From positions 1 to 64,000 of the forward strand of contig JBGSRK010000009.1 of the NCBI GenBank assembly GCA_041737595.1: a stretch of 64,000 nt of DNA, read 5' to 3'. Source of the DNA: Patescibacteria group bacterium (GTDB lineage: Bacteria > Patescibacteriota > CPR2 > UBA1875). A program made the position numbers and the translations under genes. Of this stretch, positions 1-3,224 are shown one piece after another. Each line of letters starts with the position of its first letter. The first letter of the stretch is position 1. Below the pieces are notes generated by a model, which was given only the letters and a program-made list of their open reading frames with translations, was not told the origin of the DNA and made no database searches.

Positions 1-1029
1 TTCAACTTTAGTACTAGAAGGTTTATCAGTGCTCCAAGAGATGATAGCTTGAGCATATTCATCACTCTCACCAAGTGGGAGGATATCTATCTTTACTTGT
101 TCTATAACAGGACCTGTCTTATCCATTGGAGTAGTAAATGATTTTGTTTCAGATCTGGCAGTATTACCAACAGAATCTTTTACATCAACATAGTAAGTAT
201 AGGTTGAGGCATCTTCAAGATTTTCAAGTTTAATTTCATGTGTTTTAGAGATTGAAGCAGATCCAGCTTTATTACCAAACTTACCTTGGTTACCAAATGT
301 GACAGATGCTTCAACATCTTTAGTGACAGTGACTCTTACTTTAGCAGTGTAAGAAGTAACATCAGAGACAGTAACTGAATTTTTGCTATATTTTTCCACA
401 AAATCCTTATAAGAACTAATTTTATCCCCATATGTACCAACTCCTTGATTTAAAAGATCTAAAATAAAATCCGGCTTCACCCATTTTATCTTCCTTAACC
501 CTAAATACTCCCCATAACTCGACCACCCTTCTCTCAGTTCTCTTCTAAGGGTCCGTCCCTCGAAAGGGGCGGACCCTTTTGAGACAGGGTTAAGATGTAT
601 ATAACGAGTTAAGTGCAATAAATAATTATTATCATTTATAAGTATTGCTTTATATCTCCCCTGGAATAGAGTGCCTACCCTGTCATATTTCTTATTGAAG
701 TACATTGAATAATTCGTCATCACACATTTCATAAATAGAGGCATAGAATCCTTATTCTTTTGTCTGATCAATAAATGAAAATGGTTTGGCATAAGACAAT
801 ACGCCATTAATTCAATCTCATCTGTGAATGCCCCTGCCTTGAGGGTGGCACCCTCGAAAGGGTGCCACCCTTTTTGGTGACTAAGTGGCGTAAGATATGT
901 TTTTAGGAGCCAGAGGAAATATTTATAATCTGAATCATCAATAAAGATATCACGCTTTTCTACGCCGCGATTATATATGTGGTAAATGCCACCCTCAACA
1001 TAAATTTTTAATATATTTCTTGCTGGCAT
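1..1029 (-). CDS. RAYT-like HUH/Y1 transposase fused in frame to FN3-like (purple-acid-phosphatase-N-like) repeats; 3' end beyond the window
   Basis: Manual translation from ATG 1029: MPARNILKIYVEGGIYHIYNRGVEKRDIF...AYCLMPNHFHLL (HUH)...YFNKKYDRVGTLFQGRYKA...TRYIHLNP (catalytic Tyr region)...WSSY...YKDFVEKYSKN, then SVTVSDVTSYTAKVRVTV...HEIKLENLEDASTYTYYVDVKDSVGN...SFTTPMDKTGPVI...AIISWSTDKPSSTKVE. No stop in 343 codons. Confidence 0.85.
   Translation of the reverse strand, partial: MPARNILKIYVEGGIYHIYNRGVEKRDIFIDDSDYKYFLWLLKTYLTPLSHQKGWHPFEGATLKAGAFTDEIELMAYCLMPNHFHLLIRQKNKDSMPLFMKCVMTNYSMYFNKKYDRVGTLFQGRYKAILINDNNYLLHLTRYIHLNPVSKGSAPFEGRTLRRELREGWSSYGEYLGLRKIKWVKPDFILDLLNQGVGTYGDKISSYKDFVEKYSKNSVTVSDVTSYTAKVRVTVTKDVEASVTFGNQGKFGNKAGSASISKTHEIKLENLEDASTYTYYVDVKDSVGNTARSETKSFTTPMDKTGPVIEQVKIDILPLGESDEYAQAIISWSTDKPSSTKVE
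547..578. repeat. REP-like palindrome inside the transposase ORF (copy 2)
   Basis: aagggtccgtccct-cgaa-aggggcggaccctt, 14-bp stem with one G-T pair; encodes KGSAPFEGRTL. Confidence 0.85.
842..871. repeat. REP-like palindrome inside the transposase ORF (copy 1)
   Basis: agggtggcaccct-cgaa-agggtgccaccct, perfect 13-bp stem; encodes KGWHPFEGATL. Confidence 0.9.
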
Positions 1030-1080: not shown

Positions 1081-2598
1081 ATGAGTATTGCAAAAGTAAA
1101 AACCGCTACAACCTTTGGGCTTGATGCTCTGCCAGTCGAAATCGAGGCTGATCTTTCTAATGGTCTTCCTGGTTTTACTATTGTTGGCCTCCCTGATAAA
1201 GCGGTTGAAGAATCACGCGAAAGAGTCCGATCTGCAGTTAAAAATTCTGGGTTCAAATTCCCAGATCGAAAAATAACAGTAAATCTAGCCCCTGCCGATA
1301 TTAAAAAAGAAGGCCCTTCTTTTGACCTCCCAATAGCTGTCGCGTTAATGGCTGTTTCTGAACAAATAAATGCGGATATTTCTGATTCATTATTTGTAGG
1401 TGAACTCGCGCTTGATGGAAGGCTTAGACACACGAATGGCATTTTGCCTGTAGTCCATTTCGCAAAAAGAGTAGGTATCAAAAAAGTTTTTATTCCAAAA
1501 TTCAACTTAGATGAGGCAAGTATTATTGCGGGTATTGAAATATATCCGATAGAAAATCTTTCAGAACTATTATTTTTCCTAAAAGGCGAAACACAAATTG
1601 AACCTATAGTAAGTAGCGGTCCAAAAGTAGATGAAATAAAGATTTTAATAGAAAATGATATCGCGCAAATTAAAGGTCAAGAACATGCAAAAAGAGCGCT
1701 CCTTATCGCTGCTTCTGGTTCACATAATATATTATTTTCAGGGCCTCCAGGAAGTGGCAAAACGATGCTTGCAAAAACGCTTTCTGGAATTTTACCTAAA
1801 ATGGATTTTGAAGAAATTATTGAAGTAACTAAAATATATTCAGTTTCTGGTCTTTTAGATGAAACAAATCAGCTTGTGAGCACCCGACCATTCCGTAGCC
1901 CACATCATACATCATCAGATATCTCATTAGTGGGTGGTGGGAGAATGCCAAAACCCGGAGAAATAACCCTGTCACATCGGGGTGTATTATTTTTAGATGA
2001 ACTGCCAGAATTTTCACGTTCTGTTCTTGAGGTTTTAAGACAACCACTCGAAGATGGGGTTGTAAATGTCGCAAGAGCGGCAGGGTCTGTATCTTTTCCG
2101 GCTCAGTTTCTTTTAATCGCATCTCAAAATCCGTGCCCATGTGGATTTTTGGGTGACGATCGAAAAAATTGCATTTGTACTCCAAGCCAAATTTCTAAAT
2201 ATCAAAAAAAGATTTCGGGGCCACTATTAGACAGAATTGATATTCACATTACTGTTCCTAGAGTTGAAATAGAAAAACTTACCACAAAAACCAAAGGGGA
2301 TGATTCAAATAATATAAGAGAGCAGGTTCAAAAAGCACGGATAATACAAAATAATAGGTATAAAAACACTAAAACTAAAACAAATTCTGAAATGACACAA
2401 AAACAGATTGAAGAACTTGCAAATATCAACTCTGAGGCAATTTTACTTCTTAAATCGGCTGCAGAAAAATTATCCCTTTCGGCACGCTCATATTTCCGGA
2501 TGATAAAACTCGCAAGGACCATTGCAGATCTCGAGGAATCAACTGAAATAAAAGAGAGCCACATTGCTGAAGCTCTCCAATATCGTCCAAGAGAATAA
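1081..2598 (+). CDS. comM: YifB/ComM family Mg-chelatase-like AAA+ ATPase
   Basis: LPGFTIVGLPDKAVEESRERVRSA, NLAPADIKKEG, Walker A GPPGSGKT, PFRSPHHT, LFLDELPEF, NPCPCG. Confidence 0.95.
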   Translation: MSIAKVKTATTFGLDALPVEIEADLSNGLPGFTIVGLPDKAVEESRERVRSAVKNSGFKFPDRKITVNLAPADIKKEGPSFDLPIAVALMAVSEQINADISDSLFVGELALDGRLRHTNGILPVVHFAKRVGIKKVFIPKFNLDEASIIAGIEIYPIENLSELLFFLKGETQIEPIVSSGPKVDEIKILIENDIAQIKGQEHAKRALLIAASGSHNILFSGPPGSGKTMLAKTLSGILPKMDFEEIIEVTKIYSVSGLLDETNQLVSTRPFRSPHHTSSDISLVGGGRMPKPGEITLSHRGVLFLDELPEFSRSVLEVLRQPLEDGVVNVARAAGSVSFPAQFLLIASQNPCPCGFLGDDRKNCICTPSQISKYQKKISGPLLDRIDIHITVPRVEIEKLTTKTKGDDSNNIREQVQKARIIQNNRYKNTKTKTNSEMTQKQIEELANINSEAILLLKSAAEKLSLSARSYFRMIKLARTIADLEESTEIKESHIAEALQYRPRE

Positions 2599-2603
2599 AA
2601 ATA

Positions 2604-3224
2604 TTATTTGATTATTATAACTTCAAGCTCTTCGGGTAAGTCTTTCTTTTGAATCTTAAATTTATCAACTATCTTTGGTTCTTTACCTATCTCTTTTATA
2701 AAGTTTTCAACCGGCTCCAATTCTTTTTTACCGTCTTGATAATGCATAGGTATTACTATTTTGGGGCCTATTTCTGAGATAACTTTTGAGGCTCCTTTTG
2801 GGTCCAGCGTATAGCCAGCACCCCCAACCGGGACCATTAAAATATCAACCCCATTAATCTTTTCTAATTGGTCAGAACTAAGCTCTGCCCCCAAATCGCC
2901 TAAATGACAAAAATTAATCCCATCAATTTTGTATACAAAAATTGTATTGATTCCATATTTTTCACCATGAGAACTGTTAATGCCTATTATCTCAGTATTT
3001 TTAATTTCGTATTCCCCTGGTGAATCAAAACAAATAAAATCTCCCTTAATGCCATTTTTATAGTTATGATCATCGTGATCGTGTGAAATTGTAACAACAT
3101 CCGCCTCAACTTTTGGGAAAGGCTTCCCAACTGATGATTTCTCAGAATTAAATGGGTCTGTAATAATAGTGATCTCTTTACCCTGAATTTTAAATGATGA
3201 ACGACCGAAATAAGTGATTTCCAA
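2604..3224 (-). CDS. MBL-fold metallo-hydrolase (Lactamase_B_3-like)
   Basis: ITDPF, TISHDHDDHN, CHLGDLG, VIPMHY; TTG start. Confidence 0.85.
   Translation of the reverse strand: MEITYFGRSSFKIQGKEITIITDPFNSEKSSVGKPFPKVEADVVTISHDHDDHNYKNGIKGDFICFDSPGEYEIKNTEIIGINSSHGEKYGINTIFVYKIDGINFCHLGDLGAELSSDQLEKINGVDILMVPVGGAGYTLDPKGASKVISEIGPKIVIPMHYQDGKKELEPVENFIKEIGKEPKIVDKFKIQKKDLPEELEVIIIK

What the first reader, a model, noticed from the sequence alone, without database searches (positions are those of the whole stretch)
1..1029. RAYT-like HUH transposase fused in frame to FN3-like surface-protein repeats
Seen: one uninterrupted minus-strand frame, absent from the ORF track because it runs off the window. 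About 215 N-terminal residues form an apparently complete Y1/HUH transposase (YHIYNRG, MPNHFHLL, LFQGRYK, RYIHLNP, WSSY). Near nt 385 it continues without a stop into beta-rich repeats (VTVSDVTSYTAKV...HEIKLENL..STYTYYV.VKD.VGN...SFTT, then ISWSTDKPSSTKVE). Known: RAYT/IS200-like proteins are small cytoplasmic ssDNA nucleases that form a covalent Tyr-DNA bond, while these FN3-like modules usually belong to exported surface proteins. Inference: either a new domain fusion (no signal peptide is visible), a scar of transposase-mediated capture of a surface gene, or an assembly chimera.
Basis: partly seen in the sequence, partly recalled or inferred. Interest (0 to 1): 0.8.

Follow-up and report, generated by a model that had tools for sequence, protein, structure and literature searches.

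The report
RAYT gene joined to surface-gene tail
At the very end of a contig, an ordinary RAYT-type transposase-like gene runs in frame into the tail of a giant surface-protein gene; this looks like a recent deletion scar or an assembly chimera, not a new kind of protein.

Summary
Window 1029..1 (-) is one open 343-codon frame that runs off the contig start. Residues 1-218 are a RAYT-like Y1/HUH protein; 219-343 are FN3-like repeats.

It is not a conserved architecture. All 20 homologues read in relatives stop 11-14 residues after the junction. No Tnp-FN3 protein appeared in 40 relatives, the best 120 and 150 hits of two protein searches or 63 metagenome loci.

In 8-10 of those 20 loci a large surface-protein gene lies directly downstream on the same strand, and the window's FN3 piece matches the C-terminal end of that gene family.

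Public contigs carry both unfused forms, and they part from the window exactly at nt 374|375: the RAYT with its normal tail, the FN3 piece with normal upstream gene sequence. The joint has no microhomology. Whether reads bridge it was not shown.

Best reading: a recent strain-level deletion between neighbouring genes (0.55). Main rival: a chimeric join near a contig end (0.33). A functional fusion is unlikely.

Side finding: the RAYT gene carries in-frame REP-like palindromes.

The parts
375..1029 (-). RAYT-like Y1/HUH gene (TnpA_Y1 class 2, motifs of subclass 2.1), residues 1-218 plus the first base of codon 219. It lacks the last 12-13 codons of the natural gene.
   Evidence: Pfam Y1_Tnp 40.1 bits. 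Colinear with 20 stand-alone homologues up to ...YKDFVEKYSKNS. AlphaFold pLDDT is above 90 for residues 11-150. Best PDB fold match is 4er8_A, the E. coli REP-associated tyrosine transposase (E 4.8e-6, TM 0.67 on the target).
775..786 (-). HUH motif N82-H83-F84-H85
   Evidence: N82, H83 and H85 are at least 90% conserved in alignment A1 of 32 sequences.
601..603 (-). Putative catalytic tyrosine Y143 in RYIHLNP (the Y---NP signature of class 2)
   Evidence: R142, Y143, H145, N147 and P148 are at least 90% conserved. The signature is given in Table 1 of PMC6006769.
842..871 (.). GC-rich perfect palindrome (13-nt arms, 4-nt loop) read in frame as KGWHPFEGATL (residues 53-63), in a loop before the HUH motif
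   Evidence: The model has low pLDDT in this loop.
547..578 (.). Second GC-rich palindrome (14-nt arms, 93% complementary, 4-nt loop), 76% identical to the first, read in frame as KGSAPFEGRTL (residues 151-161), just after the Y motif
   Evidence: Its arm motif recurs as palindromes elsewhere in the genome.
374..375 (.). Junction. Codon 219 (GTT) takes its first base from the RAYT side and its last two from the FN3 side. There is no shared base between the two parental sequences.
   Evidence: Loose ends of public contigs lie exactly at 374 (behind) and 375 (before). Their translations continue as the natural RAYT tail and as natural giant-gene linker.
1..374 (-). About 1.3 FN3-like modules (residues 219-343) from the C-terminal region of a giant surface-protein gene, cut by the contig start
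   Evidence: 61.5% identical to residues 2215-2331 of the giant ORF of at least 2428 aa on contig C71. 47% identical to residues 1971-2093 of the 2193-aa ORF (stop-to-stop frame) that follows the RAYT-like gene in G009. 59% identical to P0136.

Best explanation
The frame is a chimeric ORF made by a recent deletion in one strain of a small-genome (about 1.1 Mb, Patescibacteria-like) bacterium. The ancestral layout, still seen in relatives, is a RAYT-like Y1/HUH gene followed on the same strand by a giant FN3-repeat surface-protein gene. The deletion removed the last 12-13 RAYT codons, the spacer and roughly the first 2,200 codons of the giant gene. It joined the remainder bluntly and happened to keep the frame. 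What remains would encode a RAYT core without its conserved tail, then about 2.3 FN3 modules and the giant gene's C-terminal end. With no signal peptide, this product would stay in the cytoplasm. I read it as a scar, not a selected fusion. Shown here: the frame, the exact junction, both unfused forms in public contigs, the absence of the architecture elsewhere, and the neighbourhood in relatives. Inferred: that the two genes were neighbours in this strain, and that the joint exists in real DNA.
For: (1) The window RAYT is colinear with 20 stand-alone homologues, which all end 11-14 residues past the junction.
(2) In 8 of those 20 loci (10 on a lenient count) a same-strand ORF of 772-2514 aa, or one cut by the contig end, starts directly downstream. 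The background in this genome is 6 of 338 mid-size genes.
(3) The FN3 piece matches the C-terminal part of exactly that giant-gene family. Contig C71's giant ORF shares its N-terminal module with the genes downstream of the RAYT in L019, L020, L022, L027 and L030.
(4) Order and orientation of the two pieces are those of a simple deletion.
(5) Contigs of run X1 carry the RAYT side, fitting from nt 375, preceded by the natural tail (...EEILGNLKID). Contigs of X1 and X2 carry the FN3 side, fitting up to nt 374, preceded by the natural linker (...ALAKPNISS), which matches P0136's ...ALAKPGISS. No difference from the window was listed next to the joint in X1, so the event is recent.
(6) The two parental sequences share no base at the joint. 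A k-mer graph cannot create such a join without reads that carry it.
Against: The joint lies only 374 nt from a contig end, in a region with several strain variants.

No printed contig piece bridges 374|375. Four X1 records lying within nt 302-424 were not printed, so support for the joint is unknown.

Window bases 1-189 occur in X1 only as a variant with 8 differences.

The body of the parental giant gene is absent from the genome bin. This says little, because a second giant paralogue (C71:1-1689) is also missing its body.

That the two genes were neighbours in this strain is inferred from relatives in other genera. A wider sample of 63 metagenome loci does not show the neighbourhood at all: none of about 17 stand-alone genes with enough flank has such a neighbour.
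Confidence: 0.55

Rival explanations
1. Assembly or library artefact. A few chimeric reads, or a wrong path through a multi-strain graph, joined the RAYT gene to a fragment of a giant-gene paralogue at the tip of contig C67. No cell carries this joint.
For: The joint is 374 nt from the contig start. Contigs of the best-holding public run leave the window on both sides exactly at the joint, and no printed piece bridges it. Giant genes break this assembly repeatedly: C56 and C88 start with giant-gene 3' ends, and C71 starts and ends inside giant genes. The exact window haplotype is missing from X1 contigs at nt 1-189 and at nt 427.
Against: There is no shared sequence at the joint, so a graph error is not expected. 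A random chimeric fragment would rarely join two genes that are neighbours in relatives, in the right order and strand. The assembler carried the contig through the branch instead of stopping at it.
Confidence: 0.33
2. A genuine, selected fusion protein: a HUH nuclease domain tethered to FN3 modules.
For: The join is in frame and falls within one or two residues of the start of an FN3 module. This RAYT clade does form real fusions. 11 of the best 150 representative proteins are 350-460 aa and read as Y1 domain, transmembrane helix and SH3-like C-terminal end; Pfam SH3_3 was confirmed in the 5 tested.
Against: No second example was found in 40 relatives, in the best 120 hits of a 5.8-billion-protein search, among 3 longer proteins, in the best 150 representatives of a 1.84-billion-protein library or in 63 metagenome loci. 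The conserved RAYT tail is lost. There is no signal peptide or membrane segment to export the FN3 part. The flanks show no listed difference from the unfused forms, so there has been no time for selection.
Confidence: 0.05
3. The deletion was made by the RAYT itself: HUH cleavage and rejoining of single-stranded DNA near its REP-like palindromes, giving on/off or size variation of the neighbouring surface protein.
For: The joint is blunt and homology-free, as strand transfer by a HUH enzyme would leave. REP-like palindromes lie inside this gene. In relatives they also flank the gene, including the spacer before the giant gene (G017:C7:8215, G015:C21:996).
Against: No palindrome lies at or next to either breakpoint in the sequence available: window 1-374 and the two 30-nt loose ends. 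The nearest is 172 nt away. There is only one event and no recurrence.
Confidence: 0.07

Closest known systems
REP-associated tyrosine transposase (RAYT / TnpA_REP), e.g. E. coli protein in PDB 4ER8
   Same: HUH motif, Y---NP tyrosine motif and low copy number (2 copies, about 40% identical). 4er8_A is the best fold match. GC-rich palindromes are associated with the gene.
   Different: About 230 aa in natural form against 165 aa. It scores below the NCBIfam equivalog cut-off (47.3 against 80 bits). The palindromes sit inside the reading frame. In this contig the 3' end is replaced by FN3 sequence.
TnpA_Y1 subclass 2.1 of Quentin et al. 2018 (PMC6006769, Table 1 and section 15 read; Bertels group 1)
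   Same: Key motifs NH[YF]H, FQ, Y[IV]HLNP and SS all fit (NHFH, LFQG, YIHLNP, WSSY). The median length of 238 aa fits the 219-241-aa homologues.
   Different: The paper reports no REP for subclass 2.1. Here REP-like palindromes lie in, beside and away from the genes. Patescibacteria are not named in the passages I read.
In-frame REP insertions in tnpA_REP genes of subclass 2.4 (PMC6006769, section 13 passage)
   Same: Palindromes are inserted in the transposase-like gene without breaking the frame.
   Different: [quoted passage not shown] Here one is before the HUH motif and one after the Y motif, and the protein motifs are those of subclass 2.1.
Giant FN3/Ig-repeat surface proteins of small-genome (Patescibacteria-like) bacteria, e.g. 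the ORF of at least 2428 aa on contig C71
   Same: Window residues 227-343 are 61.5% identical to its residues 2215-2331. The conserved C-terminal end (...SILQLILKSLEETFSW...) recurs at C71, C56 and C88.
   Different: The window piece lacks the N-terminal membrane anchor (Kyte-Doolittle 1.71 in C71) and about 2,200 residues of body.
Natural fusions of a Y1 domain, a membrane helix and an SH3_3 domain (P0170, P0206, P0219, P0269, P0272; loci L061, L064)
   Same: The same RAYT-like clade is joined to a domain typical of the cell envelope.
   Different: They keep the RAYT tail, have a transmembrane helix (Kyte-Doolittle 2.05) and recur in many clusters. 31 of 63 metagenome loci have such long frames (only two were inspected). 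The window ORF has none of these properties.

Membership tests
TnpA_Y1 / IS200-like HUH superfamily (Pfam PF01797) | Score above Pfam's gathering threshold | tested here: met
   40.1 bits against a cut-off of 23, residues 69-145
TnpA_Y1 / IS200-like HUH superfamily | HUH motif and catalytic tyrosine | tested here: met
   N82-H83-F84-H85 and Y143 in RYIHLNP, at least 90% conserved among 32 sequences
TnpA_Y1 / IS200-like HUH superfamily | Y1 transposase fold | tested here: met
   Foldseek: 19 PDB chains at E <= 0.001. Those printed at E <= 0.001 are all Y1 transposases, with 4er8_A best at 4.8e-6. The model has pLDDT above 90 for residues 11-150.
RAYT (NCBIfam NF047646, REP-associated tyrosine transposase, equivalog) | Score above the curated cut-off | tested here: not met
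   47.3 bits against a cut-off of 80: a relative, not an equivalog
RAYT / REPtron | Gene flanked by cognate REP palindromes that are also dispersed in the genome | tested here: inconclusive
   In the window there are two palindromes inside the ORF, none in the 51-nt upstream spacer, and the downstream flank is replaced. About 7 related palindromic loci occur elsewhere in the genome. In relatives G017, G015, G013 and G028, copies flank and interrupt the gene, and 3-27 copies per genome match CAAGGGN5CCCTTG against 0 for the reversed control.
RAYT | Low copy number with divergent copies, unlike an IS | tested here: met
   Two copies in this genome, about 40% identical (C67 and C54). Some relatives have more: G015 gave at least 8 matches.
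TnpA_Y1 subclass 2.1 (Quentin et al. 2018) | Motifs NH[YF]H, FQ, Y[IV]HLNP and SS; length about 238 aa | tested here: met
   Read against Table 1 of PMC6006769 and the sequence. The paper's own HMMs were not run.
Fibronectin type III repeat | Pfam fn3 or a related model above threshold | tested here: inconclusive
   The window piece scores only 17.1 bits on Pur_ac_phosph_N (cut-off 30). Its 59%-identical relative P0136 passes Pur_ac_phosph_N (53.8 bits) and fn3 (34.2 bits). The structure model of this part has low confidence (pLDDT 27-61).
Conserved multidomain architecture (RAYT + FN3) | The same domain order in at least one independent genome | tested here: not met
   None in 40 relatives, the 120 listed hits, 3 longer hits, the best 150 representatives or 63 metagenome loci

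The most novel reading that the evidence does not exclude
The joint is a footprint of RAYT/REP activity. The HUH enzyme, whose gene in this lineage is interrupted and flanked by its own palindromes and sits directly upstream of giant surface-protein genes, cuts and rejoins single-stranded DNA. It thereby deletes or resizes the neighbouring surface gene, giving strain-level surface variation in a small-genome episymbiont-type bacterium.
Probability: 0.07. Interest if true: 0.7.

Novelty: new member of a known kind. Interest (0 to 1): 0.25.

Why it matters
As a fusion protein it would have been remarkable, but the evidence points to a scar or an artefact at a contig end, so the finding itself is ordinary. 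It is a useful caution: in-frame chimeras at contig tips next to giant repeat genes should not be annotated as new architectures without read support.

Three by-products may be worth a separate look. First, RAYT-like genes of this lineage carry in-frame REP-like palindromes in two fixed loops and are flanked by dispersed copies. For this motif class the literature I read reports no REPs. Second, in this order the gene often sits just upstream of giant surface-protein genes. Third, a sister group is fused to a membrane helix and an SH3 domain, which hints at non-transposase roles for these HUH proteins.

Tried and rejected
Read support for the joint. Read laying served only Logan contigs. None of the printed pieces spans 374|375, and 4 X1 records lying within nt 302-424 were not printed. 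I tried to infer them from the binned depths (31.4, 26.3 and 15.8 for nt 301-450). A five-unitig model with a bridging unitig overshoots the middle bin. A model without any extra record undershoots it by about 5.5. The arithmetic is underdetermined, so I draw no conclusion. The 0.80 share of words in X1 cannot settle it either. Parts of the window without cover in X2 (nt 375-934) and X3 are not used as evidence.

Junction in other assemblies. A 28-nt window stretch across the joint gave 0 matches in metagenome contigs. The population seems absent from that collection, since the best JGI relative of the RAYT is 65% identical, so this is uninformative.

Contig overlaps. The first 21-127 nt of C67 occur nowhere else in the bin. 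The two 30-nt loose-end strings are also absent from the bin.

A search for short fragments spanning the joint found one unrelated 110-aa hit.

I tested whether giant-gene N-termini contain RAYT-derived sequence, because KGRTF-like peptides appear in both. There was no significant BLASTP hit, so I rejected the idea.

I tested whether the RAYT-to-giant-gene neighbourhood is general. It is not. Among stand-alone genes in the 63 metagenome loci with at least 800 nt of downstream flank, none of about 17 has a same-strand neighbour of 770 aa or more; the largest are 759 and 618 aa. The neighbourhood is limited to the window's order.

Literature. Searches 'IS200 + Patescibacteria' (5 papers, none relevant by listing) and 'repetitive extragenic palindromic + Patescibacteria' (1 irrelevant paper) found nothing on REP/RAYT in this phylum. 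Supplementary figures of PMC6006769 (S10 and others) were not seen and may bear on the claim that in-frame palindromes are new for this subclass.

Full report
WHAT IS THERE. The window is the first 64 kb of contig C67 of a 1.09-Mb genome bin. The bin has 143 contigs, 38.5% G+C, 96.9% completeness and 3.5% contamination. On the minus strand, one frame runs from ATG 1027-1029 to nt 1 without a stop, 343 codons, and leaves the contig there. Pfam finds Y1_Tnp above threshold on residues 69-145. The rest gives only weak FN3-type hits. The ORF is missing from an ORF list only because it is cut by the contig end.

THE TWO HALVES. I aligned the ORF with 20 homologues read from relatives' genomes. It is colinear from M1 to ...YKDFVEKYSKNS (residue 218). 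All 20 homologues then finish with 11-14 more residues, a conserved tail of the type xxILGxLxLE, and a stop. The window goes on into FN3-like sequence instead.

- The HUH motif (NHFH, residues 82-85) and the tyrosine motif (RYIHLNP, Y143) are conserved.
- A model built from 32 sequences is confident for residues 11-150. Its best PDB match is the E. coli REP-associated tyrosine transposase, 4er8_A, followed by the ISDra2 and IS608 transposases.
- Against Table 1 of Quentin et al. 2018 (PMC6006769; outline, section 15 part 1 and searched passages read), the motifs NH[YF]H, FQ, Y[IV]HLNP and SS fit subclass 2.1.
- The NCBIfam RAYT equivalog model is matched below its cut-off.
- Residues 227-343 are 61.5% identical to residues 2215-2331 of an ORF of at least 2428 aa on contig C71. 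That ORF is a giant protein with an N-terminal membrane anchor and many FN3-like repeats (for the anchor).
- The window ORF itself has no hydrophobic segment.

IS THE ARCHITECTURE FOUND ELSEWHERE? No.

- In 40 relatives, every match covers either query residues 1 to about 227, in open frames of 207-272 aa, or residues 193-343, mostly in frames of several hundred to 3448 aa. Only the window's own contig spans both.
- In the 5.8-billion-protein search, 7869 proteins passed E 1e-5. The 120 listed are all 215-268 aa and cover 62-66% of the query.
- Among longer proteins, three contain the RAYT-like part and none has FN3.
- In the search of 1.84 billion representatives, each of the best 150 matches one half only.
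- None of 63 metagenome loci is a RAYT-FN3 fusion.

WHERE THE FN3 PIECE COMES FROM. In relatives the RAYT-like gene is often followed directly, on the same strand, by a very large surface-protein gene:

- 2193 aa (stop-to-stop frame) in G009:C89.
- 2514 aa in G007:C8.
- 1392 and 1385 aa in G015 and G017.
- 772 plus 1435 aa in G031.
- ORFs cut by contig ends at 1074, 943 and 935 aa in G021, G029 and G009:C43.

That is 8 of 20 loci strictly and 10 of 20 leniently. In the window's own genome, 6 of 338 mid-size genes have such a neighbour. The upstream neighbours differ between these loci.

The giant genes fall into three N-terminal families. C71's ORF belongs to the family that follows the RAYT-like gene in L019, L020, L022, L027 and L030. 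The second RAYT-like copy of this genome (C54, about 40% identical) lies head to head with another giant gene of 2576 aa, judging by coordinates.

The neighbourhood is not general. Among stand-alone genes in the 63 metagenome loci, none of about 17 with enough flank has it.

THE JUNCTION IN PUBLIC DATA. Two runs of one study hold the stretch (X1 0.80 and X2 0.34 of sampled words). Only contigs were available.

- In X1 and X2 a contig fits the window up to nt 374 and then goes on differently. X2 record 9 is 719 nt long and has 17 differences over nt 1-374.
- In X1 another contig fits from nt 375 and is preceded by different sequence.
- The sequence preceding nt 375 translates as the natural RAYT tail: ...KNS-E-EILGNLKID, against the homologue consensus DSxExLGxLxLE.
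- The sequence beyond nt 374 translates as a normal inter-module linker of the giant gene...ALAKPNISS-I-TVSD, against P0136's ...ALAKPGISSVEVLD.
- So both unfused parents exist in the same community, and they part from the window at the same phosphodiester bond.
- No difference from the window was listed next to the joint in X1.
- Codon 219 (GTT) is split between the two sources, and the parents share no base at the joint.
- Whether any contig bridges the joint is unknown. Four X1 records within nt 302-424 were not printed, and my depth arithmetic could not resolve them.
- The exact window haplotype is missing from X1 contigs at nt 1-189 and at nt 427.

WEIGHING. The join is very recent, because no divergence from the unfused forms is listed beside it, and it is unique. 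That rules out an established fusion protein.

- A k-mer graph error needs shared sequence, and there is none. So either the molecule exists or a few chimeric reads were assembled.
- A random chimera would rarely join two genes that are neighbours in relatives, in the order and orientation of a simple deletion. That favours a real deletion allele coexisting with the intact locus (0.55).
- The position 374 nt from a contig tip, in a multi-strain region where giant genes repeatedly break the assembly, keeps an artefact well alive (0.33).
- Keeping the frame has a one-in-three chance, and the finding was selected for being in frame.
- The breakpoint near an FN3 module boundary is mildly suggestive, but it is a single observation.

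SIDE FINDINGS.

(a) Palindromes in the RAYT ORF.
- The RAYT ORF holds two related GC-rich palindromes (window 842-871 and 547-578). They are read in frame as KGWHPFEGATL and KGSAPFEGRTL, in two surface loops.
- About seven loci elsewhere in the bin carry palindromes with the same arm motif, some next to giant genes.
- Seven of the 20 relatives have GC-rich palindromes in the same two loops, and several have more just upstream of the start.
- The pattern CAAGGGN5CCCTTG occurs 27, 15, 7 and 3 times in G015, G017, G013 and G028. The reversed control gives 0. Copies sit upstream, inside and just downstream of the RAYT-like genes.
- This is a REPtron-like arrangement. In-frame REP insertions are described for subclass 2.4, and 'no REP' is reported for subclass 2.1 (PMC6006769).

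(b) Natural longer forms of the clade.
- Eleven of the best 150 representative proteins are 350-460 aa and read as RAYT-like domain, transmembrane helix and SH3-like C-terminal end, one of them also with an N-terminal MerR-type HTH. Pfam SH3_3 was confirmed in the 5 tested.
- 31 of 63 metagenome loci have 361-438-aa frames of this kind; two were inspected.
- Each is followed by a gene of about 200-240 aa. The two inspected encode membrane proteins of 205 and 216 aa with no Pfam match.

VERDICT. The 'new fusion protein' reading is rejected. The most likely explanation is a recent deletion scar between a RAYT-like gene and its neighbouring giant surface-protein gene, with an assembly chimera as a serious rival. 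Raw-read mapping across nt 374|375 would decide.

Noticed in passing
window 547-578 and 842-871; also G000 C56:430-455, C71:2103-2128, C71:18246-18271, C71:50191-50216, C80:5567-5592: Two related GC-rich palindromes lie in frame inside the RAYT-like ORF, and palindromes with the same arm motif (GGACGGACC / GGTCCGTCC) are dispersed in the bin. Seven of 20 relatives carry palindromes in the same two protein loops. In G015, G017, G013 and G028, copies also flank the gene and are dispersed (27, 15, 7 and 3 matches to CAAGGGN5CCCTTG; reversed control 0). This is a REPtron-like arrangement in a motif class for which PMC6006769 reports no REPs.
   Followed up: partly
P0170, P0183, P0192, P0206, P0210, P0219, P0231, P0250, P0256, P0269, P0272; L061:3881-5083, L064:3911-5206: A sister group of the RAYT-like proteins (350-460 aa) is naturally fused to a transmembrane helix and a C-terminal bacterial SH3_3 domain; one member has an extra N-terminal MerR HTH. 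In the metagenome loci it is followed by a gene of about 200-240 aa; the two inspected encode membrane proteins of 205 and 216 aa with no Pfam match. This suggests a membrane-linked, non-transposase role.
   Followed up: partly
L015-L017, L019, L020, L023, L027, L030 (relatives); G000 C54:107437-115795: In the window's order the RAYT-like gene sits directly upstream, on the same strand, of a giant surface-protein gene in 8-10 of 20 loci, with differing upstream neighbours. The control in G000 is 6 of 338. The second copy on C54 is head to head with a 2576-aa ORF. The pattern is absent from the metagenome sample (none of about 17).
   Followed up: partly
G000 C71:1-1689, C71:54045-61328, C56:2-166, C88:1-135: Giant FN3 genes break this assembly. 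C71 begins inside one paralogue and ends inside another. C56 and C88 begin with giant-gene 3' ends (76% and 84% identical to C71's) and are candidates for the missing 3' end of the window ORF.
   Followed up: partly
homologues in L015-L034; alignment A1: The RAYT-like proteins of this clade end in a conserved C-terminal tail (consensus DSxExLGxLxLE). This is the part lost in the window ORF. Its role is unknown.
   Followed up: no
window 1081-2598 (+) and 2604-3224 (-): The neighbours are ordinary: a ComM/YifB-type Mg-chelatase-like AAA+ protein (Mg_chelatase, 311.9 bits), divergent from the ORF with a 51-nt spacer, and a metallo-beta-lactamase-fold protein (Lactamase_B_3, 164.7 bits).
   Followed up: yes
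G000 small contigs C3, C37, C61, C86, C93, C142 and others: Several contigs of 1.5-3 kb carry very GC-rich hairpins (67-93% G+C) in a 38.5% G+C genome. They are probably contaminant contigs in the bin (stated contamination 3.5%).
   Followed up: no
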